Shown here piece by piece: positions 1 through 42,762 of a DNA stretch of 64,000 bases; position 1 is the first letter of the stretch, and the number at the start of each line of letters is the position of its first letter. This DNA comes from Escherichia coli (GTDB taxonomy: Bacteria; Pseudomonadota; Gammaproteobacteria; Enterobacterales; Enterobacteriaceae). The notes under the pieces are model-generated. The model ran no database searches and was not told the DNA's origin. It saw only the letters and a program-made list of their open reading frames with translations. The stretch lies in NCBI RefSeq assembly GCF_024502345.1, contig NZ_JALDNN010000003.1; one strand, given 5' to 3'. Made by a program: the position numbers and the translations under genes.

Positions 1-1008
1 ATGAGTGATGAGCAGCATATCGGGAACGACAAATCCCGTTATATTAATGCGCCTAAGCGTACTGAAGTAATCCATCGCTCCGGGCTTCAAGGCCTGAAAG
101 GTCAGCCACGCCTGAAGAAACTTTTTACATTACACAATGGGCGGAAGCTTGAGGCGGAACACATCATTGTTCCGGCGGAAAAGGTGGAACTGGAAACCAC
201 AGTACACCCTCTGAACCCACGAAATCAGGAGGCTCTTTCTGTAAATGCAGTAAGAGATATTCTGAAGGACATTGAAGCAAGAGGTGTTGATACTGAGGGC
301 GTTGCAGTTAAGCGGAACGGAGTGTATCTGCTAATAGAAGGTAGCCGCAGGCGTTTCTGTTGCATTCAATCAGCAAAAGAATTGCCATTATGGGTTTTGC
401 CTGATGATGTTAACGCAGATGATATTAATTCCATCATATCAGCAACACAAACTTCTCGACGCTTTTCATATCGTGAAGTAGGTTTAAAGTATTTAAGGGA
501 AATGGAAGAGCATGGATTTGTTACCAATGAAGAGCTTGCAAACTATCATGGTATCAGTCACGTGTCCGTCTCTAAGCGAGTTCAGGCTGCAAAGATTAAC
601 AGCACTCTTATTGCACTGTTTCCTGACTATGAAGCTATTCCGAATTCTTATTACAATCGCCTATTCCGACTTCAAAAATATATAGAGAAGAATTTATTTT
701 CTCTTGAAGAAGTTGTTGAGAATACACGTGAGGAAATTCGAGATCTGGATATTTCTGATATTGCTGAAGCACAGAAAACCGTAATGGAGAAGATTACAAC
801 GGTAGTTGAAAAACTTGATATTAAACCACCTAGCAAAGGTTGGGATACACGTGAATTGGCAACTTTTACTAATAAAGATAAATATGCAAGAATTAGCAAA
901 AGTTCCTCGGGGCGTAAAATCCGTTTTGAGTTTAATAGAATGAACCGAGAATTAATTGACGAAATTGAGAAGTTTATAAAATCAAAACTGAGCGAAATGA
1001 ATAATTAA
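1..1008 (+). CDS. parB: ParB-like partition protein (type I partition, ParB/Spo0J N-terminal domain)
   Basis: Translation contains the ParB-box-like segment HPLNPRNQ ... LIEGSRRRFC typical of ParB/SopB nuclease-like N-domains. The ORF starts at base 1, so it may be 5'-truncated by the window edge; ParA would lie upstream. Confidence 0.6.
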   Translation: MSDEQHIGNDKSRYINAPKRTEVIHRSGLQGLKGQPRLKKLFTLHNGRKLEAEHIIVPAEKVELETTVHPLNPRNQEALSVNAVRDILKDIEARGVDTEGVAVKRNGVYLLIEGSRRRFCCIQSAKELPLWVLPDDVNADDINSIISATQTSRRFSYREVGLKYLREMEEHGFVTNEELANYHGISHVSVSKRVQAAKINSTLIALFPDYEAIPNSYYNRLFRLQKYIEKNLFSLEEVVENTREEIRDLDISDIAEAQKTVMEKITTVVEKLDIKPPSKGWDTRELATFTNKDKYARISKSSSGRKIRFEFNRMNRELIDEIEKFIKSKLSEMNN

Positions 1009-1019
1009 AATCAAAAAAT

Positions 1020-1041
1020 ATCCGCATCATTAGATGCGGAT
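1020..1041. repeat. Perfect 9-bp inverted repeat (ATCCGCATC-atta-GATGCGGAT) just downstream of parB
   Basis: Read directly from the sequence; could be a terminator stem or a protein-binding palindrome. Confidence 0.4.
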
Positions 1042-1163
1042 GAAATTATTCATGTACGCTTTTATTTAGTCTACGCATTACCAAGTCCTAAAAGAAATCA
1101 ATAGCAAAAAATATCTTAACTATCTGATAATGATGGGTTTTAACATATACGGTATTGTTAAGC

Positions 1164-1184
1164 AGGCCCCAAAGATTGGGGCCT
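1164..1184. repeat. Perfect 9-bp inverted repeat (AGGCCCCAA-aga-TTGGGGCCT) between convergent genes
   Basis: Read directly from the sequence; lies between the parB 3' end and the stop of the minus-strand 130-aa gene; possible bidirectional terminator. Confidence 0.35.
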
Positions 1185-1191
1185 AGAAGTG

Positions 1192-1584
1192 TTATTGAAC
1201 AGGGTGATGGGCCGGTTCAGACAGAAAAGGTCTTAGATCTATATGAACCGCTGCTGCATTACTGTCATTGGTCACGTTTAACGGGGCCTTACCCGGTAAA
1301 GACATAGTGGCAACGTCTGGACCAGAAACAGTAAAATTATTTTCTGCATTTGGCATTACTGTAAAAATTTTAATAGCTACATTCTCATGACGATACATTG
1401 AAATTCCGAAAGTTGATCCAGCTTCAGTATTGCTGACATCAACTTCAACCGGTGTTTTCCCGATCACTTCATTAGTAAGTATATTTTTCACAATTGCACC
1501 TTCTGGGGCAGTGTAAATGCGATAAGGGTAAGCACTTGCAGTCTGGCAGAAAAAAATACACAAAACGGTCAATATATATTTCAT
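1192..1584 (-). CDS. Small exported protein, unknown function
   Basis: N-terminal signal-peptide-like segment MKYILTVLCIFFCQTASA; last gene of a four-gene minus-strand operon with overlapping stop/start codons. Confidence 0.4.
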   Translation of the reverse strand: MKYILTVLCIFFCQTASAYPYRIYTAPEGAIVKNILTNEVIGKTPVEVDVSNTEAGSTFGISMYRHENVAIKIFTVMPNAENNFTVSGPDVATMSLPGKAPLNVTNDSNAAAVHIDLRPFLSEPAHHPVQ

Positions 1585-2102
1585 GATTGCTCCTTTTGCA
1601 AAAATTCTAAATCAAATGATTGAGTGACTACAATTTGTTTGGAATCAAATGAACCTGGGAATTTATATTTAATACTGAACAGTAATGGCAATGTGAGTCC
1701 ATCTCGTGAAGACTGTGAGATGTTCTTAAATGAGTTATTAATAAATGTTAATTGGTCATTGTTATCGTAACAAAGACCAAGTAAACCAACTGTGGGCACC
1801 GTAAAAATTGTAACTGAACTAGGTGATATCAACTGTTTTCCACGTGACGAATAGGTGCAACGACTCCCGCCGAGATTCAGATCAGACAACTCAATAAATT
1901 CTTTGGTCCCATTCTTGGCGAGTAACCAGACATCAGTGCCTGAACTCTCAATCAGAAAAGTAACTTTTCCGTCGGTGTAGGCTTCAGTTCTGTTGCTCAT
2001 TATAGGGTCGAACCCTACCGAAGGGAGGACTGCAATTTTGCTTCCAACCGACTGACATCCAGTCACAAGTAAGGTAAGAATAAATGCTGAAACTCTAATC
2101 AT
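1581..2102 (-). CDS. Putative lipoprotein, unknown function
   Basis: Signal peptide with lipobox-like LLVTGC; start overlaps the stop of the upstream gene (translational coupling). Confidence 0.4.
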   Translation of the reverse strand: MIRVSAFILTLLVTGCQSVGSKIAVLPSVGFDPIMSNRTEAYTDGKVTFLIESSGTDVWLLAKNGTKEFIELSDLNLGGSRCTYSSRGKQLISPSSVTIFTVPTVGLLGLCYDNNDQLTFINNSFKNISQSSRDGLTLPLLFSIKYKFPGSFDSKQIVVTQSFDLEFLQKEQS

Positions 2103-2934
2103 TTTCAGTCCTCATAGTCGTTTTCTGTATGGTACTGATATCGAAGTTTTCTCCTGGGTAAATTTTCAACTCTTTGGTGAAATAATCTGAACCACCGAGG
2201 AGGTTGTTACGCTTTCCAACCCAAACGAACGACGAAAATTTAAAAGTCCTTACTTTTTCTGCCGCTCTGATCTTGTAGGTATGTGAAGGTAATAAAGATG
2301 CACTAGCGTCCTCCGGGATTGCGATAGCGGGTTGAAGTTTTTTGGGGGCATTGATACGTAATGCGATTTCTGGAGAGGGGACATAGTCGATTGACGATTG
2401 TTGTGAATCTGACGGTAGGGGCAGGGTGAATTTTTTACCCTGATCTGGGCCAAAAATGGCAATAACCTCTTTTTTCTGCTTTGTTACGGACACTAACGCC
2501 TGTAACGGGGTACTGGATAGATCATTGACGAATGAAATTGTCATGCTGGAACCAGGTTCTAACCAGAGAATTCGTTTCCCGGATGCATCTTCATCAAGGG
2601 AGATAAATTTTGATATAAACACGCCATTTTTTGCAATGATGGAAAATTCAATTTTGGGTATTACAAGATTTAAAGGAGTTGAAGCAGAGTCGTTTTCAAT
2701 CTGAAGATAGTTACGCTTAGTCATGCTTGTTTTAATTACTGGTCTTTGTCGACCATCAACAAGCCACATTCCGTTGACGTAATTTGCAGCAATAGTAATA
2801 AATTCATAGTTAACCCCAGTTTTGGCATCAGATAGCTGGGACGACGGTATCGGGGTTTTAGTCGATGCATTTGTAATGTTGGATGGACCTAAAAATGCCA
2901 GCAACGGCAAAATTATCAGTTCTAATTTAAGCAT
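2095..2934 (-). CDS. Exported protein, unknown function
   Basis: N-terminal hydrophobic signal MLKLELIILPLLAFLG; tightly coupled to flanking genes. Confidence 0.4.
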   Translation of the reverse strand: MLKLELIILPLLAFLGPSNITNASTKTPIPSSQLSDAKTGVNYEFITIAANYVNGMWLVDGRQRPVIKTSMTKRNYLQIENDSASTPLNLVIPKIEFSIIAKNGVFISKFISLDEDASGKRILWLEPGSSMTISFVNDLSSTPLQALVSVTKQKKEVIAIFGPDQGKKFTLPLPSDSQQSSIDYVPSPEIALRINAPKKLQPAIAIPEDASASLLPSHTYKIRAAEKVRTFKFSSFVWVGKRNNLLGGSDYFTKELKIYPGENFDISTIQKTTMRTEND

Positions 2935-3905
2935 TATAATGTGGCCTCTATATTATTATCATTTGAATCCAGGTTAAGTGGTGCAGTGTTTTGTGTGTAA
3001 ATACCGTTTTTATTCAGGATCATTTGGTGGCAAATCAGGGTCGGTGTAGATGCCAGGATCAACTCGACCAGTGTTATTGCCGGAACTGTAGTAGGCGGAA
3101 TACCTGGTGCCAGTAGTGCTGGGCTACTGATTTCTGACATGTACAGAGAACCTGTATTGATGTGGAGGCAGTTTCCTATGAGTACCGGTAAGTTAGTCAG
3201 CGGTAGCCCATGGGCCTTTCTGATGCTGTTAACTGGATTCCGACCCAACACTACGAGGTTTACATCGCTGACATTCACTGGCCTGACTGCGTGATCCATG
3301 CCGTATAGAAACTGACTCTGAAAAATATTCACATTTGCCTGATTAAAAGCGAGGAGGGCGTTATATGTATTGTTGAAGCCCTGCCGTATGTCTGTGTAAT
3401 CGGATGGGCAAATACCTATAGAAATATTGCCTTTAAAAAGCACCTTCATCACAGTAGCCAGCTGGGTGGAGAGCAGTTTGCAGATTTCCTCTTCAAGATA
3501 GTTGCGGTTAATTTGTTTATGCCATCGCCCGCCTCTTGCACACCACCGTTCATTAAGAAATGTGCTTGGATAATAAGTCCTGCGGTCTTTATTTATGGGT
3601 AAGAGCTTTTTCAGCATCTCTTCTCCGGCCCCGGCAGCTGAGAACACACGAACAGAACGGCCGTCAAAAATCCCTGTGTTGATCGCTGTCATTAACTCCA
3701 TAGGCTCAGGTCCATAATCGAAGAGATTTCCTGTGGAGAAAACGATCAACTCCTCATCAGGTTCTGATATCGAATGGATAAGGTTACATAGCGTCGAATA
3801 ATGACCATGAGGGTCTGCCAGAAAGAAAACCCTTCCTGAAAAATTAGTCAGATCAATTGTCTGGACGTGCTCGGATGCCATAAATGCCTCTTTCTGAAAT
3901 TGCAT
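2934..3905 (-). CDS. Putative metallophosphoesterase-like protein (calcineurin-like fold), first gene of operon
   Basis: Motifs FFLADPHGHY and GNLFDYGPEP resemble the DxHG / GDxxDRG metal-binding motifs of PPP-family phosphoesterases, but they are degenerate. Confidence 0.35.
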   Translation of the reverse strand: MQFQKEAFMASEHVQTIDLTNFSGRVFFLADPHGHYSTLCNLIHSISEPDEELIVFSTGNLFDYGPEPMELMTAINTGIFDGRSVRVFSAAGAGEEMLKKLLPINKDRRTYYPSTFLNERWCARGGRWHKQINRNYLEEEICKLLSTQLATVMKVLFKGNISIGICPSDYTDIRQGFNNTYNALLAFNQANVNIFQSQFLYGMDHAVRPVNVSDVNLVVLGRNPVNSIRKAHGLPLTNLPVLIGNCLHINTGSLYMSEISSPALLAPGIPPTTVPAITLVELILASTPTLICHQMILNKNGIYTQNTAPLNLDSNDNNIEATL

Positions 3906-4254
3906 TAATACTACCGGATGAAAGTCATCAATTTTTTCGATAAGAGGGGTAATTTTTGTGAGTGTCCAAAATGGAGCTAGAAATCATTTTTCGGTTTCCG
4001 AGCCGTATCAACTGTAATGCACCTCAGTTGTTTTATTTTTGGTATAAAAACGCTGAGCAAAATATAGTTTTTGCGTGTGTTGCTCAGGTGTACATGAATC
4101 TAGGGTTGTATCTGGATTAAAACTGAAGGATTCTTTTTTAACAAGGACTTACGTTAGTGTTTTGTCCCGTTTAATGTTGACCTAAAGCAACCATTGGTGT
4201 ATAAATTCCATAACAAAAGTGGTGGGCTAAATAAACCAATACGAGGGTTTCTGC

Positions 4255-5289
4255 ATGACTGAATTAGCAAAAACAAAACTGGCTGTGGCTGAATCAAACT
4301 CTACTGAACTTGAGACACTCAAAGTTGTTATTGATGATGGTAGTAAAGCGGCAAAACTGGTTTGCACTAACAATCAAGGTGACCTTGTACCTTTATTGAC
4401 TCAAAATAGTTTCGTTGCAGATTTCCGGGTAAGCCATGACGGACTTATTCCATTCAATTATCTAATTGATGGTCTTCAACGATTCTCGCACCACAGCGAA
4501 TCAAGCAATGCTTTAGAAACTACCGACGTTGCGCATCAGTACGATGAAATCAGTCGTCTTAATGTTCACCATGCTCTACATTCCTCAGGTCTAATGCCAC
4601 AGGATGTTCATCTCTACGTAACTTTGCCACTCAGTCAGTTTTATACCGCTCTGGGTGAAACCAATAATGAAAACATCCAACGAAAAAAAGACAACCTGAT
4701 GAAGCCGGTGGAGCGTTATATTGATGGTAAACGTGTTTCATTTAATGTTGTTTCAGTTACCGTTTTCCCGGAATCCCTTCCAGCGGTAACGCGTGCTGAT
4801 GAAATCGAATCAATTGAATCTTTTGAATCAAGCCTGGTTATCGATTTAGGTGGGACAACACTTGATGTTGCAAGCATTACAGGTCAGCTGGAACAGATCT
4901 CCAGTGTCAGGGGTTTTGACCGTATTGGTTGCTCAATCGTATATGATGAAATCCGTCGTTATTTGGATTCTGCAAAGCTGAATGCAAGTAACGCCTATAT
5001 TCATCACCTAGTCGATAATCGTGAAAACAAAGCCTCGCTCAAGGTGTCCCCGGAAGATCTTGACGGCGTGTTCAATGCTGTTAATGGGGCTGTGGCGCAA
5101 CTTCAAGAAAAAGTGATTAAAGCAGTCACTCAAGTGGAAGAACGGCCGCATAATGTTTTCCTTGTTGGTGGAGGTTCTTACCTGATTGAACCGGCAGTTC
5201 GTAAACATTTTGACAAATCGAAAATCATCATGGTTGATAATCCGCAATTCGCACTTTCACTGGCTATCGCAGATACTGTTTTTGCATGA
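4255..5289 (+). CDS. parM: ParM/StbA-like actin-type segregation ATPase (type II partition)
   Basis: Actin-fold phosphate motifs LKVVIDDGSKAAKL, LVIDLGGTTLDVA and FLVGGGSYL; length about 344 aa as in ParM. Confidence 0.65.
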   Translation: MTELAKTKLAVAESNSTELETLKVVIDDGSKAAKLVCTNNQGDLVPLLTQNSFVADFRVSHDGLIPFNYLIDGLQRFSHHSESSNALETTDVAHQYDEISRLNVHHALHSSGLMPQDVHLYVTLPLSQFYTALGETNNENIQRKKDNLMKPVERYIDGKRVSFNVVSVTVFPESLPAVTRADEIESIESFESSLVIDLGGTTLDVASITGQLEQISSVRGFDRIGCSIVYDEIRRYLDSAKLNASNAYIHHLVDNRENKASLKVSPEDLDGVFNAVNGAVAQLQEKVIKAVTQVEERPHNVFLVGGGSYLIEPAVRKHFDKSKIIMVDNPQFALSLAIADTVFA

Positions 5290-5316
5290 TGATGGTTTTG
5301 CAAAGGGGAGAGTTTT

Positions 5317-5994
5317 ATGACTAAAAAATCTGAGAAGGAAAACGATCGTATTCAGATTAGTGCGTTTTGGTTATCGGAACGACAATCTCCGTATGCCTAT
5401 AATTTTTTGAAAAAAAATGCCCTAACACATCGTGGCGAGCAGATTTCTCTAATAAGATCTGCAATCACTACGGGGTTAGTGCTAAATAATCTCTTCCCCG
5501 AGTTATCTAGTTTTATTAATGGACTGAATGAGAGATTAACAGCTGCTGATCTAAATCGATTTTTTAATGATGAATTTAATAAAGACAAATTAAACAATGA
5601 AAATTTGAAAGAACAAATAAGCTTTATGCTTGATTCGAAATTCAATGAATTATTTTCAATGATTAATGGCTGTGATTTTTCTAAGGCAACTTTTTCAACT
5701 ACTAGTCAATCTGATGTCAGTGAAACATTAAAGGCAGAGAGGGTAAGGGATCAGCGGCTGGAATTAATACCTAAAGAACTGACTGTAAATCCCAAACCTG
5801 AGACTTTAGAGATTTTAACGCCGATTGAGAGCGCAAAAAAGAATGATTCAGGTTTAAATACTAGTCATGGTTCTGCTGCTGTTAGCGCCTCACAAAGCGA
5901 AAACACGGTGCTGAGTGAACATGCGCAAATCCAAGGTGTGACAAGGAAGCCGAAGAAAAAGGCCAATGCAAACCTCGCAAATCTTGCGAAGTAA
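5317..5994 (+). CDS. Candidate ParR-like adaptor (partner of ParM), unknown otherwise
   Basis: Immediately downstream of parM in the position ParR occupies in parMR loci; low-complexity C-terminus; no motif recognised, so this is a positional inference only. Confidence 0.3.
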   Translation: MTKKSEKENDRIQISAFWLSERQSPYAYNFLKKNALTHRGEQISLIRSAITTGLVLNNLFPELSSFINGLNERLTAADLNRFFNDEFNKDKLNNENLKEQISFMLDSKFNELFSMINGCDFSKATFSTTSQSDVSETLKAERVRDQRLELIPKELTVNPKPETLEILTPIESAKKNDSGLNTSHGSAAVSASQSENTVLSEHAQIQGVTRKPKKKANANLANLAK

Positions 5995-6035
5995 GTATAG
6001 TAATATCAATTGATTAGATTGAGTTATCTATTAAT

Positions 6036-6068
6036 AAAAAGTCAGCTTACCAGCTGGCTTTTTTTTGG
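6036..6068 (+). terminator. Rho-independent terminator after the parM operon
   Basis: Stem AAAGTCAGC / GCTGGCTTT followed by a T8 run. Confidence 0.5.
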
Positions 6069-6559
6069 TATATTATTAACAGGTGAGGGGGAATGGTAAA
6101 CCGGTTTCATGTACTAAATGAATCCCTCGTTGTCACATCTCCAGTTAAGCCAGTTTGAAGAATTATAGAGCCAGTTCTAAGAAATCATTAAAATTCGCGT
6201 GGGTTGATTCAGGTCGAACCAGTTACGATTTTGGATAAATTATTGTTGGTTAGGTAAACCACTAAAAAAAGGTGGTTTAGGCCCCGTTTACTGTTCTTTG
6301 TTTGCACGATGTATGTATAGGTGTTAAAACGGGTACAGATTTTTCCTAAAGTATTGGCTGAGATAGGAAATATCTTAATAAAATTGGTACTTATTTATTA
6401 TTTTATGTAAAAAATCTCTATGCTTTACTGGTTAAGTTAGATTTTTTTGTTACCCTAACCCATAAGACCTTAATGGTTACTACGCTGCAAGCGGGAAGAT
6501 GGTAAGGAACTAGCGGGATCATGTGTAACTATCTGATTATTATAATAAAGGCTGACTGA

Positions 6560-7012
6560 ATGTTATCACGCAACTCACTAATACACGGTTTACGTCGAGA
6601 TCAGTTAATCGAAGTTCTGTCTATTTCTGAATTCCCAGTTGTCCTGGTCGAGAATCCCTTCATTCAGCCTAAATCAACAGGCAAAAAACCAGTCATTTTT
6701 AATATTGATGAATTTCATGTTTCCATTGCCCCAATTTCATCGCTTAAGTACGACTGGGAGTGGGCTCCAATTGATACAATACTCATCGAAGTGGTCATTC
6801 CGCCTGCTGAAGCAGACCTGGTAAGCGCCGAGAATGATTTCCTTCGCGATGCAGGTATTGGCCATATTCAATGCGAGCCTGGAGGCGTTTCGATACGCCG
6901 TACAGTGACATTTGTTGGGGGGATCACCGCCGACAATTTGCTGTATCAACTCAGGCTTATGTGCGTAAGTGCTTTACACTTGATTGGAGAGGAACTGGAG
7001 GATGAAAGTTAA
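6560..7012 (+). CDS. Hypothetical protein
   Basis: 150-aa ORF, first of three co-oriented genes upstream of the large secreted protein; no motif recognised. Confidence 0.3.
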   Translation: MLSRNSLIHGLRRDQLIEVLSISEFPVVLVENPFIQPKSTGKKPVIFNIDEFHVSIAPISSLKYDWEWAPIDTILIEVVIPPAEADLVSAENDFLRDAGIGHIQCEPGGVSIRRTVTFVGGITADNLLYQLRLMCVSALHLIGEELEDES

Positions 7013-7436
7013 TTTTAAAAAGGTAATCCCCCTTTTAATGGTTGGTTTAACAGTGGCGGGGTCTTACTCGATCTTTAACGCAAAACCGTCGAAGCCTGAC
7101 TTGTACGATTTTACTGGCAAAGTTCTTAAAACCACTTCTGTTTTCCAACCTTGTGATAAAGAATCCACACCTTCGTTGAACATCCAGATAGCAGATAACG
7201 GAAGCGTACATATCAATGGCGTTGCATCAAAAGTTACTTTTGTTGAGAGAGTTCCGGGTAATGAAATTGCAGTTAAGTGTACGGGTCTGCAAGTCAAAAA
7301 TTCCCGCCTTGTGCATACGAGCTCTTACACCATGATAATTTCGGAAGGAAAAGGTGGTTTTGTTATTTCGGATTTGACGCACACGAAGGATAATGAAGTT
7401 ATGTCCGGTACATGGTTCTTTAAGAAGAGAGTATGA
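6984..7436 (+). CDS. Exported hypothetical protein
   Basis: Signal-peptide-like N-terminus (VIPLLMVGLTVAGSYSIFNA); contains one copy of the 13-bp palindrome at 7229. Confidence 0.35.
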   Translation: MERNWRMKVNFKKVIPLLMVGLTVAGSYSIFNAKPSKPDLYDFTGKVLKTTSVFQPCDKESTPSLNIQIADNGSVHINGVASKVTFVERVPGNEIAVKCTGLQVKNSRLVHTSSYTMIISEGKGGFVISDLTHTKDNEVMSGTWFFKKRV

Positions 7437-7996
7437 CAATGAGCGATCTGTCAGCAACTGGTGCGAAGCCTCAACGGGTCAGAGTATTCAGCCAATCTGT
7501 CGCGATGGCATTCGAAGTAAATCTCGACAAAAGTCGCTCTGCTGATAATTCGGCGTTTGTAACTGAGACTGAAAAGTATTACCTGTCTCTCCAGTTTGCT
7601 CCTCCGTCTGACAATAGGGAATATGGATGGAATTCAGAGGGCAGCATTCTCATGAAACTATCCCAAAACGAAGCCATGGCGCTGGCATCTGTTTTTCTGA
7701 GAATTAAGCCGACACTAAAATTTGAAAAGCGTAAGACCACGCATCGCACTCACCAAGCCTACAAAAATATCAATATCGGACCCAACGACCGTGGGGGCCT
7801 TTTGGTAAGCGCAAGCATTGTACCGGTTAAAATGGGGACGTTTAAGCCTTTAAATTATAACCTTCCCGTAACACAAATGGATTGCGTTTCAACAGGCTTG
7901 TTCTTGTTGGGGTTCCTGACACTTAAAATGCCTTGGGTATCCTCAGAATCGATAATTACCGCCCTTCGCCTATCTGAGTCTAAGAGCGGTCAGTGA
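7433..7996 (+). CDS. Hypothetical protein
   Basis: 187-aa ORF overlapping the previous stop; hydrophobic C-terminus. Confidence 0.35.
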   Translation: MTMSDLSATGAKPQRVRVFSQSVAMAFEVNLDKSRSADNSAFVTETEKYYLSLQFAPPSDNREYGWNSEGSILMKLSQNEAMALASVFLRIKPTLKFEKRKTTHRTHQAYKNINIGPNDRGGLLVSASIVPVKMGTFKPLNYNLPVTQMDCVSTGLFLLGFLTLKMPWVSSESIITALRLSESKSGQ

Positions 7997-8106
7997 GCTA
8001 AAAAATCTCAATTTCCTGCAAAAATTTAATGTTTTTTTTCCTCTTTACGAACAAGATTTCAGAATTTTTTAACGTAGAGTGATTCTAATTCTGCGTAAAA
8101 AAACAG

Positions 8107-11100
8107 GTGTTCGTCATGAGAAAATCAGGTTTATGTTTAACCCTGTTGTTTTCTTTAATTGCTTCGATTAAATCGGTACAAGCTGAGGCAATTATGATTT
8201 CCGGAAAACTCCAGGCTGATATGCCTGCCGTCACGTTTAATCCCGGCCCGGGCGATTTTGTTGCATTCGTCAACAATAATACAATTACTGCTTCAGGTAC
8301 TGGCAACGCATGCAATGTGACGGTTGATGATCGTGCGACATCAAGCGTAGATAACTTGGTCTGCTTTTTTGAATGGCTTCCAAATACCTCTGGCTTTACA
8401 GCAAACGGATTCAATTTAACAGGGATACCCAATGCGGCAGGAGAACTAAAACTGCCGTATAAAATTTCTTATTTTTCTGGATCAGAAAGGCAGAAAGTAG
8501 AAGTGGTTAATGGGGAGTATACAGTTAATGCTCTTGTACCGGTTAAACCGACGATAACGGGCCTGAAATCGTCTATGAATGGAGTGGTTCAGGATGGTTA
8601 CACTCTTAAATCCTATCTTAAGGATGAAGCAATTAGGAATGTCACTGTCTCCGTAGAGCCTCGCAATTATGTGCAATATATCTCTATCGGGTCTGGATCA
8701 GCTTGCGAAGTCGAAATTGGTGGGAATGGCTGCACGATCGATGTTGGAAGCATCAAAGTAAGTGATTCGGATTTGCTGATGGGTTCACGGGAAATCACGG
8801 TCACTGCCAATTCGAAAAATAATTACTTTGCCCCTCCTGAAGCGCAGAAGCTAACGCTGACCTGGGATTACCGTCCTCCTGTTGTTGACCATACTCTCTG
8901 GAATTTCACGGATGAAGCTAAAACAATAAGTATTGGTGGACAGGAGATCTATACAGGAGCTAGAACGGTGGCCGTAGCCGTCAAAGTGCCTCAGGAAGAA
9001 ACTGAGGGTGAGTGGTGGTTACCAACCGCTATGACGCTAACGATGAATCCTGATGGGGTGTTTAAGCCGACAACAAAAGTTACTTTAGAAGATGGTACGG
9101 TTATCGACTTTAAGCAATCCTGGGCAACACCGCTACGTCGTACTCTTCAGCCCGTGAGCGGGCCACAGAAAGTCGGCGATGAATATCTGTATATCTTTGA
9201 CTTAACAGACTTGACGAATGGTTCTTATGCCGCCTCGTTCACGGTAGAGAACAATAGCAAGAATACCTCTACGTACAATGAGCCTGAAAGCAAACTGATG
9301 CTTTCTGATAACCCAACACTGATGGTGCTTAAGGACGGTGCAGCTCTGGCCAAACGAGCTCCTGTGTATTTCTTAAATGAAATTATTGTTGCCGCATTCC
9401 AGGGCCAGGCCGGAGTCGCGGATATTAAAGCTGTTACGATAGATAACAAACTTGTTGAGCTCACCCCCACGAACCACAAAGGCATTTATTATCTGCCGGT
9501 TGGGGATGATCTAGAAGTGAATGCTGACCATGAAATCACGGTCATAGCTGAAAACCTGTACGGCAAGATTGTGACATTTAATACTACTTTCACGTATCAA
9601 CCAACAGGATTCACGCTTAAAAACTTTGAGAAAGACATCACATTGTACTCACGAGTTCGGCAGTATACCGATCTCATGAGTCAGACGGCCGGTGATAAAT
9701 GCACTCTCTTTACTACAGAAGAGAACGCACTGGCATACCTTGAATGGTATGGTGACAAATCTGATATCACCGCCTGTTACCCTCAGTGGAACAATGTGCC
9801 TGACGGGCTTGAATTTTACTTTAAAGGCCGGACGCCAGGCCTGACAGGGTTCTTCAATAAAACAGGCGATAACCTGCTCGACTATCAGGTCTATATGATA
9901 AACGGCAAGGGCTCTAAAGCTGTATCGTCCAGAAACCGCCATGTGCTGATTACGCAGTTACCTTATAACCCGGTCCTTACCTACAAGAAAAACAAGGTGT
10001 TGACGGGGATTAACGATAACACCGCACTGGCGTATACCACTGGCGGGGAAGCAGCTCGTCTATTGGCAAAAGTGGTTCCTGCTGATGTGACAGTCTATGT
10101 TTCACAAAACGGGGGGGAAAGCGTAAAAACGACGTTTAAGAACCGTTCATCAAATAACGATGCAACGACGTTTGTTCAACGTCTTAAAGTGGCATCAGCC
10201 CCGTTGTGGACGAAGAATGTCTTCGACATAGCTGTCGAGTACTCGAAGGAACCGACTATGCGAACCGTTGATACGCTCAATGTGTATACGGTACCCGACT
10301 TTAACATTAGAGCGGCAATGGAAATTGAGGACAAAAAGACTGCTACCACGATGGAATTGCCATTGAAGGTGTCTGTTGGCCGCTATAACAATTCAACCCG
10401 CAAAAGTTCATTTAGTCGGACAACAATGGGGGACTGGGATGTAACCATTTACGCTCAGAAAAGTGTTTATGGAAAAGATCCAGAAACAGGCCGATATAAA
10501 ACGACGTATGAACGTACACCCCTAACCGAAGCACTGCCCGTGAATGATGCCGGGGTGGTTGAAACCAAGATCAAGATAGAAAATTTGGACCTCGGGAACG
10601 TGCGACTTGTCGGGATTGCTAAAGTACGATCGCCTTTCGCAGATTTCGAACTGACCCGGGAAACCAGTGCAGTTAGCATCCGTGTTTATAAGGGCGAAGA
10701 GCTAGAAGGTAATCTCTCAAAGAGTCTGATTATCGGACGTATCCCGCTCAGTACGCTTGTTAACTTCAAATCGGCCAGTACAGCTAACTCCGATGCGCTG
10801 GCGCCTACCGAGTGGCAGGAGTCTTCTGATAATGGACAGACATGGACTATGCTTCAGGACATGACAGGGAAGCGAAGCATTTCGATCAGGAAAACTGAGG
10901 TTGGTAAATGGCTTTACAGGGCAAAAATGACCAACAAGTTTACGTCGAAAGAGTCTTATAGCGACGTTCTGACGGTTGTAACGTACAAACAGCCTAAGCT
11001 GAGCATCGATGTTGCTGAAATTCTCGAAGGCGATGATTTGCCTGTCACGCTGCTGGATAACGATGAACCAATTCCGCAGGGTACGGCCGAAGTGATGTGG

Positions 11101-12414
11101 TCGGAGGATAAAGTGAATTGGGTTCAGGGTGACACTACCTATAACGTATCGGCCGCTGATACGCTACCTCCGACCATTTACGCCCGAATGCGTTACCTGG
11201 ATTCTGATGAGTTGGCTGAAGAGTCATCCTGGAAAGAGACGTCTGCCCGGTTAACCGTCGCTAAACCCAAGCGCCTATCTGTTTCAGTAAGTGGTATTTC
11301 AAGCGTCGAGGTGGGAAGTAAAGTTACTTTAGATGGTAAATACACTAACCCGAACAGCCGATTCAAGAACGGAAATGACGTCATTGAAGAATGGACTGCC
11401 CCTGACGGACAAAAAATCAGAGGTGCGAATCTGTCGATAACTTTGACTGAGCAGATGCTGGATAAGCAAGGATATGCGGCATTTGAATACAGTGCATGGC
11501 TTGCTGGCAGTAAGGACAGTACTATTTCCACGCGGAAAGTATCTGTTAAATCTTGGGTGTATAAGTTTCCTGAGATGAAAGTCAGTACAAAGCTTAAATA
11601 CACCATGGCCCCGTCGACCTTACATGTTGCGCTGAGCGGAATAAAAGACGGTGGCTATCCTGGGGTAACTTATTCTCGGGAATGGATCTACGATAAGGAC
11701 AATATCTCAGTTTTAAAAGATGATGGTGATACGAAAGAATTTGCAATTGCGAAGCCGGGGAAATATACGTTGGTAATCGTTTTCCGTGATAACCGTAACA
11801 ACGAACAGCGTATTGAAAATACCTTCGTAGTCGATGAGCAAACGCCCATGACTGTAGAAATGACACCGAAATTCTCTAATAAGTTCATGAGGGCGCCTCT
11901 TGATGTCACGCTAAGATCTAACATTAAACTGGCGCACTCTGCTGACAGTATTGATACTGTGACATACAAAGTAAACGGCGAGGTTGTTCCTGGTAGTAAA
12001 AACTATTGGGCTCAGTTAATTTCTGGTCTTACTGAGAAGAAATACGAAGTCACGCTGGATGTTGTCAGTAAAATGGGCCAAAGAGGTACCGCATCAGTTG
12101 ATTTTGAGGTTGTTAAAAACGCGGCTCCGCAATGTGCATTAAGCTACACAGAGTCTAATATGAGCTGGAGTTTCACAAACAAATGTATTGACACTGATGG
12201 CAAGCTGGTTCGATATGAATGGTATATCAATGATGAGCTAAGGAATGTTTTCGGCAGCACTGCGACACTGTCCAAAAACCTTAATCGTGGGAAGCAAGAT
12301 ATACGAGTTGTCGCGTATGATGATAGTGGGGATTCAGCAACTCAGCGTACGACCGTTTATGGTCCGGATGAGGGCGCGTCAAAGTCCGTAGATTCAGTTG
12401 AAACCTCGCAGTAA
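8107..12414 (+). CDS. Large (1435 aa) secreted protein, Thr/Ser/Val/Asn-rich, probably multi-domain beta-rich surface protein
   Basis: Signal peptide MRKSGLCLTLLFSLIASIKSVQA; long uninterrupted ORF; composition suggests repeated Ig-like domains; sits directly upstream of the transfer genes. Confidence 0.55.
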   Translation: MFVMRKSGLCLTLLFSLIASIKSVQAEAIMISGKLQADMPAVTFNPGPGDFVAFVNNNTITASGTGNACNVTVDDRATSSVDNLVCFFEWLPNTSGFTANGFNLTGIPNAAGELKLPYKISYFSGSERQKVEVVNGEYTVNALVPVKPTITGLKSSMNGVVQDGYTLKSYLKDEAIRNVTVSVEPRNYVQYISIGSGSACEVEIGGNGCTIDVGSIKVSDSDLLMGSREITVTANSKNNYFAPPEAQKLTLTWDYRPPVVDHTLWNFTDEAKTISIGGQEIYTGARTVAVAVKVPQEETEGEWWLPTAMTLTMNPDGVFKPTTKVTLEDGTVIDFKQSWATPLRRTLQPVSGPQKVGDEYLYIFDLTDLTNGSYAASFTVENNSKNTSTYNEPESKLMLSDNPTLMVLKDGAALAKRAPVYFLNEIIVAAFQGQAGVADIKAVTIDNKLVELTPTNHKGIYYLPVGDDLEVNADHEITVIAENLYGKIVTFNTTFTYQPTGFTLKNFEKDITLYSRVRQYTDLMSQTAGDKCTLFTTEENALAYLEWYGDKSDITACYPQWNNVPDGLEFYFKGRTPGLTGFFNKTGDNLLDYQVYMINGKGSKAVSSRNRHVLITQLPYNPVLTYKKNKVLTGINDNTALAYTTGGEAARLLAKVVPADVTVYVSQNGGESVKTTFKNRSSNNDATTFVQRLKVASAPLWTKNVFDIAVEYSKEPTMRTVDTLNVYTVPDFNIRAAMEIEDKKTATTMELPLKVSVGRYNNSTRKSSFSRTTMGDWDVTIYAQKSVYGKDPETGRYKTTYERTPLTEALPVNDAGVVETKIKIENLDLGNVRLVGIAKVRSPFADFELTRETSAVSIRVYKGEELEGNLSKSLIIGRIPLSTLVNFKSASTANSDALAPTEWQESSDNGQTWTMLQDMTGKRSISIRKTEVGKWLYRAKMTNKFTSKESYSDVLTVVTYKQPKLSIDVAEILEGDDLPVTLLDNDEPIPQGTAEVMWSEDKVNWVQGDTTYNVSAADTLPPTIYARMRYLDSDELAEESSWKETSARLTVAKPKRLSVSVSGISSVEVGSKVTLDGKYTNPNSRFKNGNDVIEEWTAPDGQKIRGANLSITLTEQMLDKQGYAAFEYSAWLAGSKDSTISTRKVSVKSWVYKFPEMKVSTKLKYTMAPSTLHVALSGIKDGGYPGVTYSREWIYDKDNISVLKDDGDTKEFAIAKPGKYTLVIVFRDNRNNEQRIENTFVVDEQTPMTVEMTPKFSNKFMRAPLDVTLRSNIKLAHSADSIDTVTYKVNGEVVPGSKNYWAQLISGLTEKKYEVTLDVVSKMGQRGTASVDFEVVKNAAPQCALSYTESNMSWSFTNKCIDTDGKLVRYEWYINDELRNVFGSTATLSKNLNRGKQDIRVVAYDDSGDSATQRTTVYGPDEGASKSVDSVETSQ

Positions 12415-24772: not shown

Positions 24773-25825
24773 ATGACTAACGCCGCAACTGTATTAAAAT
24801 CCGACAATTCCGTACAGGAAGAAATCATTGGTAATCTGTTACCCGCAAATGTTATATCAAGTAAGATGTTTGCGAATAAAGAACAGTATTATCTTGTCAA
24901 AGCAAAAGATTTATTTGGCATTCCTGAGATGGATGAGGATATGATTGTTCCAGTGTTTAAAAAGTTTTCTCCATATCGTGCGAATCTGAATAAGGACTAT
25001 ATACCAAATTCTCGAATACTTGAGCAAGTAGTAAAATTGCTTGTAAGTAACGATATAGATTTGAGTGTATGCCTGAAAGGAGAATCTGGATCAGGTAAGA
25101 CTGAAATGGCAATGTATATTAGCCATATGCTGAACTGGCCGCTAACCATAAAGCAAATCAACAGCAATATTCGCGCTGATGAGCTGGAAGGTGAGCGTAG
25201 TCTTATTAACGGTAACACCAGTTTTGTGCCTAGCGAGCTTGTAACGGCATTTCAGGAAGGCCACCTCATTCTTCTGGATGAAGTGGACAAGATTGACCCT
25301 GATACTGCCGCAAAGCTTCATATGCCTATAGAGCGAAAGCCCTGGTCACTAGCTGCCAACGGTGGCGAAGTGGTTAAGGCAAATAAGTTTACGCGATTTA
25401 TGGGTACTTCAAACACAAACATGAGTGGGGGATCTCGTAAGTTCGTTTCATCGCAGCGGCAGGATGCAGCGTTTATCAAGCGCTTCCTGATTGTGGAGAT
25501 GGAAAGGCCTTCAGAGGTTGCATTAACCAACGTTTTGCTTAAACGCTACAATAACCTGCCTATGCTGGTAATTGAAAAATTCGTTTCGGTAGCCGTTGCA
25601 GTAAACAACACAGGAACTGACGACAGTGTAATGGATATACGCCAGCTTGTGGCATGGGTTGGAACGTCAATGACGTTAAAGACCATGTCCTTACTGGATA
25701 CATTTAAAATTGCTTTTGCGTCGGCTCTGCCTGCACATGCCACTGGTATGGTGTTGGAAGCCATCGACTTAATTCTCGGTGACGACAAGAACCGTACAAT
25801 GGAGTATTACACTGCAAAAAAGTAG
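24773..25825 (+). CDS. AAA+ ATPase, CobS/MoxR-like (AAA_5-type)
   Basis: Walker A GESGSGKT and Walker B ILLDEVDK; size about 350 aa; start set at the ATG after a SD-like CCGGAG. Confidence 0.6.
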   Translation: MTNAATVLKSDNSVQEEIIGNLLPANVISSKMFANKEQYYLVKAKDLFGIPEMDEDMIVPVFKKFSPYRANLNKDYIPNSRILEQVVKLLVSNDIDLSVCLKGESGSGKTEMAMYISHMLNWPLTIKQINSNIRADELEGERSLINGNTSFVPSELVTAFQEGHLILLDEVDKIDPDTAAKLHMPIERKPWSLAANGGEVVKANKFTRFMGTSNTNMSGGSRKFVSSQRQDAAFIKRFLIVEMERPSEVALTNVLLKRYNNLPMLVIEKFVSVAVAVNNTGTDDSVMDIRQLVAWVGTSMTLKTMSLLDTFKIAFASALPAHATGMVLEAIDLILGDDKNRTMEYYTAKK

Positions 25826-25863
25826 TTATAGATGGGACGAGTTATCAGAAGGCTGAATGCCGT

Positions 25864-26133
25864 GTGACAGACTTTGCTCATCTTACGTTTTACGGTTTTC
25901 TGAGTGCAAACGGAACTGAAACTTTCGTGATTGCACAAGATGGAAATCAATATATAGGTCTGAAGCAGCATAATAATGACTATTCATTTATTTGTTATGA
26001 AGTCTGTAACAAAGATATGGAAGCCATGATTAAGGGCCTTGAATCAAAAGGATTCATGTATCAAGGGAGCATTCAATCGGCGGATGTCGAAAATGAATTT
26101 CCTGGAATTCTTTTAACAACACTTGAAAAGTAA
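25864..26133 (+). CDS. Small hypothetical protein
   Basis: 89-aa ORF between the AAA+ gene and the next gene. Confidence 0.3.
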   Translation: MTDFAHLTFYGFLSANGTETFVIAQDGNQYIGLKQHNNDYSFICYEVCNKDMEAMIKGLESKGFMYQGSIQSADVENEFPGILLTTLEK

Positions 26134-26203
26134 TATTATTAACCCTATCGGGAAATCTTTCCCGACGGGGAGGTTTTCCCATTTCTAAATCTGGAGAAAA
26201 CCT

Positions 26204-27331
26204 ATGACTTTCAATACTTCTAAACTTAATAAAGTTTCTGCAAAGGAAATCAGTGAAAACTTTATAAAAGCATATCCTGACTTGCAGAAAGGTGCTGTTA
26301 TAACAAAAATTGAAATTAGTGGGTGTCAGGGCTCTCGGCGAACTGATAAAATCGAACTGTCCTATGGCGGTGATGATATAACAGACCAGAAGAGCGTGTC
26401 TAAAAGCGAAGTTCGCTGGATAGACATAAAGGCACTGAGTTTCAAAAGCACTATCACTAGTCGAATTTCAACCCTTTGTTCACGGTTGTGCATCCGCTAT
26501 AGCAATATGTGGATACTGCCAGTTGAAAGGATGGAGGAGTTTCTCGAAGAGGCACAAGAAATCGAACGTGAATTTCAAGCCGGTATCCAGAACGTGGTTG
26601 ATAACTATGACACTCATATTCAGGCTGAGAAAGATCGCAGTCCGTTGATGTCAGATTTAATTGACCAGTTGAAATTGACTAAAGATGATTTTGTTAAATC
26701 ATTCCGGTTTAATCTGGCACATTTCATTCCGTTTTCACCGATTAGTGTGGAGGGGGATGAAACGCAGGACTTTTATCAAGAACAACTGATAACTGACTTG
26801 GCCGATGAAGCTATGAAGGTTTATACAAAAATCAGCAAAAATGATAATTTGCGTTCCAGCACGATTGACCGATTAAAGCAGATGCAGGATAAAATAATTA
26901 GCTTCATGTTCATTCATAAAGAGGCTGTTGTTCTTGCAGAAGCTATTAAGCATATCATGAATAATTTACCAAAAGGTGCCATTTCTTCTCCCCGTGATGT
27001 TGCGGTATTAAAGCAGTGGTTCTATTTCATGAGCGATGCGTCAATGCTGAAACGTATTATCTCCGGTGAACAAAAGGTAACCGACTGGCTGGATTCCATA
27101 ACCCGGTCATTCAATATCGATTCACAGGTTACAGCGGCTAACTCTCTGAATACTGCTGAGGATGATGTTTTTTCTTCAGCAAATGTTTTCAGAGAAGACC
27201 CGGTTGAAGATCTTGAGAACAAGGCAGTGAATGCACCTGAGCCTGCTGTTGGCCCTGATGAAGATGTTTCTATTCAGGCCAGTGGTAGTAATAGAGCATT
27301 TGACTGCGAACTCGAATTGACCGGTTGGTAA
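26204..27331 (+). CDS. Hypothetical protein associated with the AAA+/vWA pair (possibly the DUF3150-type partner seen with CobS/CobT-like pairs)
   Basis: 375-aa ORF located between the AAA+ ATPase and the vWA protein; family assignment is from recollection of gene-neighbourhoods, not a search. Confidence 0.35.
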   Translation: MTFNTSKLNKVSAKEISENFIKAYPDLQKGAVITKIEISGCQGSRRTDKIELSYGGDDITDQKSVSKSEVRWIDIKALSFKSTITSRISTLCSRLCIRYSNMWILPVERMEEFLEEAQEIEREFQAGIQNVVDNYDTHIQAEKDRSPLMSDLIDQLKLTKDDFVKSFRFNLAHFIPFSPISVEGDETQDFYQEQLITDLADEAMKVYTKISKNDNLRSSTIDRLKQMQDKIISFMFIHKEAVVLAEAIKHIMNNLPKGAISSPRDVAVLKQWFYFMSDASMLKRIISGEQKVTDWLDSITRSFNIDSQVTAANSLNTAEDDVFSSANVFREDPVEDLENKAVNAPEPAVGPDEDVSIQASGSNRAFDCELELTGW

Positions 27332-42739: not shown

Positions 42740-42762
42740 CGACAGACCAGAAGCGGGAAGCC

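What the first reader, a model, noticed from the sequence alone, without database searches (positions are those of the whole stretch)
1..5994. Two partition systems of different types flank an operon of exported proteins
A ParB-type protein (1-1008) and a ParM-type actin ATPase with a candidate adaptor (4255-5994) lie within 6 kb. Between them is a divergently organised four-gene operon of signal-peptide and lipoprotein genes plus a metallophosphoesterase-like gene (1192-3905). Dual partition modules embedded in transfer DNA are known from IncHI-type plasmids; the function of the intervening exported-protein operon is unknown. A 9-bp inverted repeat at 4052-4087 lies in the divergent promoter region.
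Basis: partly seen in the sequence, partly recalled or inferred. Interest (0 to 1): 0.4.

Follow-up and report, generated by a model that had tools for sequence, protein, structure and literature searches.

The report
IncHI1 partition genes flanking entry-exclusion operon
This is the well-studied Tra2 segment of IncHI1 typhoid resistance plasmids (R27/pHCM1): parB of one partition system, the parM-parR partition system, and between them the "Z operon", which is not of unknown function but encodes the plasmid's entry-exclusion system.

Summary
The gene-level observation holds. Window 1-8000 is 100% identical to pHCM1-type IncHI1 plasmids, and its proteins carry the same accessions as R27.

- **Partition genes.** ParB (1-1008) matches P1 ParB and ParM (4255-5289) matches R1 ParM. 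The 225-aa downstream protein has a ParR-like layout, but its sequence homology to ParR is weak.
- **Par1 is incomplete here.** Only parB lies in the window. parA and a candidate centromere array lie upstream of position 1.
- **The operon is known.** Genes at 1192-3905 are the R27 Z operon: trhO (R0015), eexB (R0016), lipoprotein R0017 and trhZ (R0018). The literature describes it as the entry-exclusion system, controlled by TrhR/TrhY and HtdA. "Function unknown" is out of date.
- **The par modules are additions.** Distant IncHI-like Klebsiella plasmids keep the Z operon between trhC and htdA with no par genes beside it.
- **The inverted repeat is chance-level.** It is 8 bp, not 9. A quarter of shuffles match it, and it is not conserved.

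New minor points:
- TrhO has lost most phosphatase catalytic residues.
- EexB is predicted as a copper-less double cupredoxin.
- No parC iteron array was found.

Verdict: already known, low interest.

The parts
1..1008 (+). parB (R27 R0019), the centromere-binding protein of the type Ia Par1 system. Its partner parA and the candidate centromere lie upstream of window position 1.
   Evidence: PF08775 ParB at 49.2 bits against a cut-off of 25. P1 ParB 1zx4 at E=3.8e-17 over residues 150-327. GSRRR arginine patch at residue 114. Same accession WP_001278833.1 as in R27. Named parB/R0019 in PMC7366339.
1020..1041 (-). Perfect 9-bp stem with a 4-nt loop followed by a T-run on the minus strand. Terminator of the Z operon, possibly acting in both directions for parAB as well.
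   Evidence: Terminator scan. The stem is kept in IncHI2 through two compensatory changes: ATCCGCATC/GATGCGGAT becomes AACTGCATC/GATGCAGTT.
1164..1184 (.). Second 9-bp perfect hairpin (AGGCCCCAA/TTGGGGCCT) just downstream of the trhZ stop codon.
   Evidence: The Pantoea lineage keeps a stem here with changed bases.
1192..1584 (-). trhZ (R0018), which from memory of Gunton 2008 is the same gene as eexA. Exported 130-aa beta-sandwich protein and last gene of the Z operon.
1581..2102 (-). R0017, a 173-aa lipoprotein of the Z operon, with lipobox LVTGC and Gln at position +2.
   Evidence: 'Lipoprotein (Z)'. 33% identical orthologue in par-less Klebsiella plasmids.
2095..2934 (-). eexB (R0016), an exported 279-aa exclusion protein predicted to be two cupredoxin-like domains without copper ligands.
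2934..3905 (-). trhO (R0015), a lambda-phosphatase-like protein with degenerate catalytic motifs and first gene of the Z operon. The conserved start codon is at 3881 (Met9 of the annotated ORF).
   Evidence: PF00149 at 23.4 bits. PHROG 246 NinI-like phosphatase at E=5e-9. Profile against lambda PP 1g5b at E=1e-4, with GDLVDRG aligned to GNLFDYG and GNHE aligned to GAGE. Start codon evidence.
3906..4254 (.). Divergent control region between trhO and parM. It holds the Z-operon and parM promoters, and probably parC, which was not located.
   Evidence: Six-lineage alignment. No tandem iterons found.
4053..4087 (.). It is 8 bp perfect with 19 nt between the arms, at chance level, and specific to IncHI1.
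4126..4155 (.). Most conserved block of the spacer (GAAGGATTCTTTTTTAACAAGGACTTACGT). It contains TAACAAGGACTTA, one mismatch from the IHF consensus WATCAANNNNTTR as I recall it. Candidate protein-binding site.
   Evidence: Near-invariant in six lineages. The IHF reading is an inference.
4177..4205 (+). parM promoter: TTGACC, 17-nt spacer, TATAAA.
   Evidence: Read directly from the sequence. Both hexamers are invariant in six lineages.
4193..4240 (.). Inverted repeat ATTGGTGTAT / ATAAACCAAT bracketing the -10 hexamer and the transcription start. Candidate ParR operator or parC core.
   Evidence: repeat I7. IncHI2 carries ATTAAT in both arms, so the arms change together. The evidence is weak.
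4255..5289 (+). parM (R0014), the actin-like ATPase of the type II Par2 system.
   Evidence: PF06406 at E=2.8e-63 and PF21523 at E=3.8e-53. R1 ParM 1mwk at E=1.2e-45, residues 24-332 against 3-309.
5317..5994 (+). parR (R0013), the adaptor. It has a conserved 85-aa N-terminal domain, a variable linker of about 110 aa, and an invariant C-terminal tail KKKANANLANLAK.
   Evidence: Alignment of 13 homologues. PF10784 (StbB/ParR) at E about 0.05 in 9 of 13 members, below the cut-off. hhalign against StbB-type ParR gives P=0.0017 and probability 15%. Named 'ParR-like'.
6036..6063 (+). Intrinsic terminator closing the parMR transcription unit.
   Evidence: 12-bp stem followed by a T-run. Conserved in six lineages, with compensatory changes in IncHI2.

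Best explanation
The region is the Par/Z segment of the Tra2 transfer region of an IncHI1 plasmid of the R27/pHCM1 type. It holds three independent functional units.

**1. parB of Par1, a type Ia ParABS system.** ParB is a relative of P1 ParB. It binds a centromere and, together with the Walker ATPase ParA, positions plasmid copies over the nucleoid. parA lies immediately upstream, outside the window. So does the probable centromere, which consists of arrays of a 21-bp core ATTTAACCCCCTTAATCGCCA.

**2. The Z operon (trhO-eexB-R0017-trhZ).** This is a transfer-backbone operon. Its envelope proteins mediate entry or surface exclusion of related IncH plasmids and are needed for full transfer frequency. 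It is switched on with the other tra operons by TrhR/TrhY and held down by HtdA.
- TrhO is a cytoplasmic lambda-phosphatase-fold protein that has probably lost catalysis.
- EexB, R0017 and TrhZ are exported.

**3. Par2 (parM-parR), a type II system.** ParR binds a site at or near the conserved parM promoter, though this site is not mapped here. Through its conserved C-terminal tail it captures ParM filaments, which push sister plasmids apart.

The adjacency reflects evolutionary history and not a joint mechanism. The two par modules were acquired on either side of a pre-existing Z operon.

**Shown here:** identity with R27, the family assignments, the operon anatomy, the terminators, the promoter, and the synteny in other lineages.

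**Taken from the literature:** the stability and exclusion phenotypes and the regulation.

**Inferred:** the centromere sites, TrhO inactivity, and the EexB fold.
For: **Identity with R27/pHCM1**
- 100% nucleotide identity to pHCM1-type plasmids over 8 kb, with 284 plasmids carrying the whole segment.
- Identical protein accessions in R27.

**Family assignments**
- ParM and ParB match solved structures.
- R27 gene names for R0013-R0020 come from the supplement of PMC7366339.

**Literature on function and regulation**
- In the htdA mutant at 25 C the Z genes rise 8- to 17-fold, while parM and parB stay at 1.0-fold.
- EexA and EexB are exclusion factors, and EexB is in the outer membrane.
- trhO and trhZ raise transfer frequency.
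- Par1 is the major and Par2 the minor stability determinant of R27.

**Anatomy and synteny**
- Terminators separate the units.
- The parAB / Z / parMR / htdAFK / rsp order is conserved in IncHI2 and in Pantoea, Salmonella and metagenome lineages.
- In two Klebsiella IncHI-like lineages the orthologous four-gene operon lies directly between trhC and the htdA-like genes, with no par genes.

**Candidate Par1 centromere (outside the window)**
- 23 copies of the 21-bp core lie upstream of R27 parA, and 11 identical copies lie upstream of IncHI2 parA. The window has none.
Against: - The primary papers (Lawley & Taylor 2003; Gunton et al. 2008; Lawley et al. 2003) are not held in the library. The phenotypes therefore rest on secondary citations and one supplement, and the equation eexA = trhZ = R0018 rests on my memory of the Gunton abstract.
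- The ParR assignment is statistically weak at sequence level.
- No parC iteron array was found.
- In wild-type R27 the Z operon is not thermo-induced, unlike the other tra operons.
- The centromere role of the 21-bp core is untested here.
Confidence: 0.93

Rival explanations
1. The four genes are an uncharacterised cargo operon of exported proteins, and the two partition systems and the operon form one composite module.
For: - There are no Pfam or NCBIfam hits for the three exported proteins, and RefSeq labels them 'hypothetical protein'.
- The par / operon / par order is conserved in IncHI1, IncHI2 and related lineages.
Against: - The operon is named and characterised in R27.
- It is co-regulated with the tra genes, while the par genes are not.
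- It persists in the same Tra2 position in lineages that lack both par modules.
- Conserved terminators separate the three units.
Confidence: 0.03
2. The Z-operon proteins are primarily accessory parts of the mating-pair apparatus in donors, and exclusion is a by-product of homotypic contact between the same proteins in donor and recipient.
For: - trhO and trhZ are reported to raise transfer frequency.
- EexA and EexB are reported to be needed in both donor and recipient for exclusion.
- The operon is induced 8- to 17-fold with the tra genes in the htdA mutant.
- It is conserved as a core Tra2 block across all IncHI-like lineages examined.
Against: - Exclusion genes of other plasmids are typically dispensable for transfer.
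- No sequence or fold link to known T4SS components was found.
- This reading overlaps with the main explanation and does not replace it.
Confidence: 0.2
3. Par2 (parMR), embedded among the tra genes and only a minor stability determinant, mainly serves conjugation, as reported for R1 ParM/ParR, and not vegetative partition.
For: - R1 partition proteins enhance conjugative transfer (title and abstract of PMC4949242).
- Par2 is the minor stability determinant.
- parR rises 2.4-fold in the htdA mutant.
- SXT/IncA/C relatives carry parMRC-like loci inside their transfer regions.
Against: - Secondary sources report that both R27 systems are functional in stabilisation.
- parM expression is constitutive and high, and is not induced with tra.
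- IncHI-like Klebsiella plasmids lack parMR at this site.
Confidence: 0.08

Closest known systems
R27 / pHCM1 Tra2 'Par region' (Par1 parAB, Z operon, Par2 parMR)
   Same: The locus is identical. Nucleotide identity is 100% to pHCM1-type plasmids. The protein accessions match those in R27, and gene order is the same from R0013 to R0020.
   Different: Differences are trivial. R27 has an extra 16-bp tandem unit between the parM stop codon and the parR ribosome-binding site. In the pHCM1 type, the repeat arrays upstream of parA are interrupted by IS421 and IS1.
R1 / NR1 ParMRC (StbA/StbB), type II partition
   Same: ParM is homologous over its full length (E=1e-45, about 38% identity in IncF plasmids). 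parR lies directly downstream. A strong sigma-70 promoter lies upstream. The adaptor has an N-terminal domain and a conserved C-terminal tail.
   Different: ParR is 225 aa against about 117-130 aa, with a long variable linker, and has only marginal sequence similarity. No array of 11-bp iterons is detectable upstream of parM.
P1 ParABS, type Ia partition
   Same: The C-terminal half of ParB aligns with the P1 ParB DNA-binding and dimerisation region. ParA is large, 417 aa. A 20-bp palindromic repeat lies just upstream of parA. The candidate centromere core contains ATTTAAC and TCGCCA, which resemble P1 box A and box B as I recall them.
   Different: The candidate centromere is a long array of 11-23 copies upstream of parA. 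P1 has a single parS with an IHF site downstream of parB. Downstream of parB this locus has only terminator-like hairpins.
Exclusion systems of other conjugative elements (F TraT/TraS, IncC Sfx, IncP TrbK)
   Same: The proteins are envelope-located, encoded inside the transfer region, and block redundant transfer. EexB is in the outer membrane, like TraT.
   Different: This is a four-gene operon that includes a cytoplasmic phosphatase-fold protein. The factors are reportedly required in both donor and recipient. There is no sequence similarity to TraT, TraS or TrbK.
Lambda phosphatase / NinI, PrpA/B (PPP-family metallophosphoesterases)
   Same: TrhO shares the fold-level signature and motif I, D-x-H-G.
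   Different: Motif II changes from GDxxDR to GNLFDY. Motif III changes from GNHE to GAGE. The later His ligands are replaced. There is a C-terminal extension of about 100 aa with a hydrophobic stretch at residues 274-292.
Multicopper oxidases / SufI (FtsP), two or three cupredoxin domains
   Different: Identity is 11-18%. EexB has one His and no Cys, so it has no copper sites. Like SufI, it would be a non-catalytic scaffold.

Membership tests
Type II (ParMRC) partition system | Actin-like ATPase ParM | tested here: met
   PF06406 and PF21523 score far above their cut-offs. R1 ParM structures match at E=1.2e-45 over the full length.
Type II (ParMRC) partition system | Small DNA-binding adaptor ParR encoded directly downstream of parM | tested here: inconclusive
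   The gene is in the right place and has an N-terminal domain, linker and conserved tail. PF10784 scores only E about 0.05. The PDB profile search finds nothing. hhalign gives probability 15% and P=0.0017.
Type II (ParMRC) partition system | Centromere parC of iterated ParR sites at the parM promoter | tested here: inconclusive
   No tandem iterons were found. There is a conserved promoter, plus a promoter-spanning inverted repeat whose arms change together in IncHI2.
Type II (ParMRC) partition system | Stabilises a plasmid in cis | not testable with these tools
   Reported for R27 Par2 as the minor determinant, by secondary citation of Lawley & Taylor 2003.
Type Ia ParABS partition system | ParB with helix-turn-helix and dimerisation domains and an N-terminal arginine patch | tested here: met
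   PF08775 is above its cut-off. P1 ParB 1zx4 matches at E=3.8e-17. GSRRR at residue 114.
Type Ia ParABS partition system | Walker-type ParA encoded immediately upstream | tested here: met
   It is not in the window. A 417-aa ParA family protein overlaps parB by 4 nt in pHCM1 and R27. The L013 orthologue hits PF01656 and PF13614.
Type Ia ParABS partition system | Centromere bound by ParB | tested here: inconclusive
   None in the window. The candidate is a 21-bp core present in 23 copies (R27) and 11 copies (IncHI2) upstream of parA. Binding was not tested.
IncHI Z operon (entry exclusion: trhO, eexB, R0017, trhZ/eexA) | Same genes as R27 R0015-R0018 | tested here: met
   Identical accessions in R27. 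Names come from the supplement of PMC7366339. TrhZ is named as such by UniRef and nr.
IncHI Z operon (entry exclusion: trhO, eexB, R0017, trhZ/eexA) | Confers exclusion of IncH plasmids | not testable with these tools
   Literature only.
PPP-family metallophosphoesterase (lambda phosphatase-like) | Sequence and fold signature of the family | tested here: met
   PF00149 at 23.4 bits against a cut-off of 21.5. PHROG 246 at E=4.8e-9. 1g5b at E=1e-4 with the profile.
PPP-family metallophosphoesterase (lambda phosphatase-like) | Catalytic motifs GDxHG, GDxxDRG and GNHE, plus the later His ligands | tested here: not met
   The motifs read ADPHG, GNLFDYG and GAGE, and the later His positions are replaced. 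This holds across seven orthologues.
Multicopper oxidase / cupredoxin | Tandem cupredoxin fold | tested here: met
Multicopper oxidase / cupredoxin | His and Cys copper ligands | tested here: not met
   EexB has one His and no Cys.

The most novel reading that the evidence does not exclude
The IncHI exclusion operon may encode an envelope complex built from 'disarmed' enzyme folds. These are a lambda-phosphatase-like protein that has lost most metal and catalytic residues (TrhO) and a copper-less double-cupredoxin protein (EexB), together with a lipoprotein and a beta-sandwich protein. The complex would act by homotypic recognition between donor and recipient.

Separately, a 21-bp core that is identical in IncHI1 and IncHI2 may be the shared Par1 centromere. 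That would give a partition-based reason for incompatibility between HI1 and HI2.
Probability: 0.3. Interest if true: 0.3.

Novelty: already known. Interest (0 to 1): 0.1.

Why it matters
IncHI1 plasmids carry multidrug resistance in Salmonella Typhi, so their stable inheritance and exclusion functions affect how resistance persists and spreads. This locus has been described experimentally since 2003-2008, so the finding adds nothing new at the level at which it was stated.

Three modest additions come from this work:
- The par modules are lineage-specific insertions around a core transfer operon.
- TrhO is probably a pseudo-phosphatase.
- EexB is predicted to be a copper-free double cupredoxin.

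These give testable starting points for the still unknown mechanism of IncH exclusion.

Tried and rejected
- **Primary papers.** Lawley & Taylor 2003 (by DOI and by PMC154067) and Sherburne 2000 (PMC105367) are not held.
- **Centromere iterons.** TRF at minimum score 30 on window 1-8200 gave only two trivial rows. Repeat scans of the three intergenic spacers gave only short two-copy families.
- **ParR homology.** A single-sequence and a profile search of the PDB gave only a spurious GlmU hit. hhalign against four StbB-type ParRs was weak.
Rejected as a feature after the shuffle test and phylogenetic footprinting.
- **The parR-htdA spacer as a parC site.** Its variable middle part is deleted in IncHI2, and its conserved part belongs to the htdA promoter region.
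- **Defence-system or phage origin of the operon.** There are no PADLOC hits, and the only PHROG hit is TrhO to the NinI phosphatase family.
- **Rfam.** Nothing in the region.
- **TrhZ fold searches.** Only generic beta-sandwich matches.
- **Left undone.** Structure jobs were exhausted before R0017, TrhO or ParR could be modelled.

Full report
**What the window is**

Window 1-8000 is 100% identical to many pHCM1-type IncHI1 plasmids of Salmonella Typhi. In all, 284 plasmid records carry the whole segment. In pHCM1 (L001) and in the reference plasmid R27 (L002), the ParB, ParM, metallophosphoesterase and three 'hypothetical' proteins carry the same RefSeq accessions. The proteins here are therefore the ones studied experimentally in R27.

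Window position 1 is the ATG of parB. The sequence ATGA overlaps the stop codon of a 417-aa ParA gene that lies just outside the window.

**Checking the observation**

- parB at 1-1008 (+).
- Four overlapping minus-strand genes at 1192-1584, 1581-2102, 2095-2934 and 2934-3905.
- parM at 4255-5289 (+).
- A 225-aa gene at 5317-5994 (+).

Three operon products begin with export signals, one of them a lipobox LVTGC. The fourth passes the Pfam Metallophos threshold.

The reported 9-bp inverted repeat is an 8-bp perfect repeat (4053-4060 / 4080-4087). An equal or better one occurs in 25% of 1000 dinucleotide-preserving shuffles of the spacer. It is absent from the other five lineages aligned. It should be dropped as a feature.

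**The partition genes**

ParM is unambiguous. Its Pfam E-values are 1e-63 and 1e-53, and it matches R1 ParM structures at E=1.2e-45 over the full length.

ParB hits PF08775 above threshold. Residues 150-327 align with the DNA-binding and dimerisation part of P1 ParB at E=3.8e-17. An arginine patch, GSRRR, lies at residue 114. This makes Par1 a P1-like type Ia system.

The adaptor is less clear at sequence level:
- Only 18 clusters of homologues exist.
- Pfam StbB/ParR (PF10784) scores about E=0.05 in 9 of 13 members.
- A PDB profile search finds nothing.
- hhalign against four StbB-type ParRs gives a 27-column match with P=0.0017 but only 15% probability.

Its architecture is nevertheless what an adaptor needs. 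It has a strongly conserved 85-aa N-terminal domain, a variable linker, and an invariant C-terminal tail KKKANANLANLAK. In R1 the ParR tail binds ParM; that point is from my own knowledge.

Secondary sources state that R27 has two functional systems. Par1 (ParAB) is the major and Par2 (ParMR) the minor stability determinant. The primary paper is not held.

**The operon between them is known**

PMC7366339 states that Tra2 contains the AC, Z and AN operons. It states that the Z operon codes for the entry-exclusion system and that TrhR/TrhY activate F, H, AC and Z, with HtdA counteracting them.

Its supplementary table lists the genes as follows:

| R27 locus | Name in the supplement |
|---|---|
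| R0013 | ParR-like |
| R0014 | ParM-like |
| R0019 | parB |
| R0020 | parA |

This is exactly the order seen here.

Other supporting points:
- Database names for homologues of the 130-aa protein are 'TrhZ'.
- EexA and EexB are cited as exclusion factors, with EexB in the outer membrane, and both are required in donor and recipient.
- trhO and trhZ are reported to raise transfer frequency.
- From my memory of the Gunton 2008 abstract, the operon is '015, eexB, 017, eexA', which makes eexA the same gene as trhZ/R0018. I could not verify this in a held text.
- In the htdA mutant at 25 C the four Z genes rise 8- to 17-fold, while parM (1.02x) and parB (1.00x) do not move. The three units are therefore regulated separately.

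**Anatomy that supports three separate units**

- A 9-bp-stem hairpin with a minus-strand T-run at 1020-1041 ends the Z operon. It keeps its stem in IncHI2 through two compensatory changes.
- A 12-bp-stem terminator at 6036-6063 ends parMR. It is conserved in six lineages.
- The parM promoter TTGACC-17-TATAAA (4177-4205) is invariant in six lineages.
- Upstream of the promoter, the block 4126-4155 is the most conserved part of the spacer. It contains a near-consensus IHF-like site, which is my inference.
- An inverted repeat bracketing the -10 hexamer and the transcription start (4193-4202 / 4231-4240) changes in both arms in IncHI2. It is my best candidate, though a weak one, for a ParR operator.
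- No iteron array of the R1 kind exists.

**Evolutionary context**

The order parAB > < Z | parMR > htdAFK rsp is conserved in four settings:
- IncHI2.
- A Pantoea plasmid.
- A divergent Salmonella plasmid.
- A metagenome contig, in part.

Two Klebsiella IncHI-like lineages differ: IncHI1B/FIB and pKP19-3088-375k. There the orthologous four-gene operon sits directly between trhC and the htdA-like genes, with no par genes on either side. The orthologues are 28% (TrhO), 25% (EexB), 33% (R0017) and 43% (TrhZ) identical.

The Z operon is therefore core Tra2 backbone, and the par modules are additions on each flank. A Photorhabdus contig has Z and parMR but a transposase where parAB would be.

**New details on the Z proteins**

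*TrhO.* It belongs to the lambda-phosphatase/NinI family. Across seven orthologues, however, motif II reads GNLFD(Y/W)G where the family has GDxxDRG. Motif III reads GAGE (or GFHE) where the family has GNHE. The later histidine ligands are also replaced. The alignment to the real 1g5b sequence confirms the first three motifs. I infer a catalytically inactive scaffold. The conserved start codon is Met9, at window 3881.

*TrhZ.* The model is a plain beta-sandwich (pLDDT 78.7) with only generic matches.

**Par1 is incomplete in the window**

In R27 the 3 kb between parA and trhC holds arrays of 52-54-bp repeats. They contain 23 same-strand copies of the 21-bp core ATTTAACCCCCTTAATCGCCA. IncHI2 has 11 copies of the identical core at about 249-bp spacing. 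Pantoea has 10.5 copies. In pHCM1 the arrays are split by IS elements. The window has none.

The core contains ATTTAAC and TCGCCA, which resemble P1 parS boxes A and B as I recall them. This fits the P1-like ParB. I regard it as the probable Par1 centromere, but it is untested.

**Verdict**

The 'unknown' operon is the IncHI entry-exclusion (Z) operon, and the inverted repeat is noise. Novelty: already known. Interest: low.

Noticed in passing
L002 (R27) 25602-26744 and 27544-27846; L003 (IncHI2) 268-3203; outside the window, upstream of parA: Arrays carrying a 21-bp core ATTTAACCCCCTTAATCGCCA: 23 copies in R27 and 11 identical copies in IncHI2, although the flanking DNA has diverged. The window has none. 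Probable Par1 centromere. The core resembles P1 parS boxes A and B as I recall them.
   Followed up: partly
L002 25381-25426 (43-88 bp upstream of R27 parA): A 20-bp palindromic unit TATGCGTAAACTTTACGCAT repeated 2.3 times. It looks like a ParA autoregulatory operator of the type Ia kind.
   Followed up: no
window 5285-5316 versus L002 18771-18809: R27 carries one extra 16-bp tandem unit (GCATGATGATGGTTTT) starting at the parM stop codon. It lengthens the parM-parR spacer from 27 to 43 nt. The window (pHCM1 type) has a single unit.
   Followed up: yes
window 6330-6559: The roughly 230 bp upstream of htdA are almost invariant across six lineages, including IncHI2. This is more conserved than the neighbouring coding DNA (about 72% identity). 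It is a strongly constrained regulatory region of the AN operon.
   Followed up: partly
window 7433-7996: The HtdK 'plasmid transfer protein' (187 aa) passes the Pfam gathering score for the Whirly single-stranded-DNA-binding fold. PF08536 scores 24.6 bits against a cut-off of 23, over residues 19-148.
   Followed up: no
window 3881-3905: The annotated trhO start (3905) adds eight codons that four other lineages lack. The conserved start, with a GAGG ribosome-binding site, is the ATG at 3881, and a candidate Z promoter would overlap the longer ORF.
   Followed up: partly
window 2937-3905 (TrhO residues 274-292): The C-terminal extension found in IncHI1 and IncHI2 contains a hydrophobic stretch (Kyte-Doolittle 19-residue mean of 1.77). 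It could anchor TrhO to the inner membrane. The Klebsiella orthologues lack this extension.
   Followed up: no
L005 6297-9364 and L006 6289-9361: Klebsiella IncHI1B/FIB-type plasmids and pKP19-3088-375k carry the Z operon between trhC and the htdA-like genes, with neither parAB nor parMR beside it.
   Followed up: yes
L011 586-1968: A Photorhabdus tasmaniensis contig has the Z operon and parMR but a DDE transposase where parAB would be.
   Followed up: no
window 8107-12414: A 1435-aa exported protein annotated as RSP, the large Ig-like protein known to be required for IncHI conjugation (PMC6764697).
   Followed up: no
window 42706-42823: The only Rfam match at gathering score in the 64-kb window is an IS1222-type ribosomal frameshift element (156.6 bits). 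It marks an IS3-family insertion sequence.
   Followed up: no
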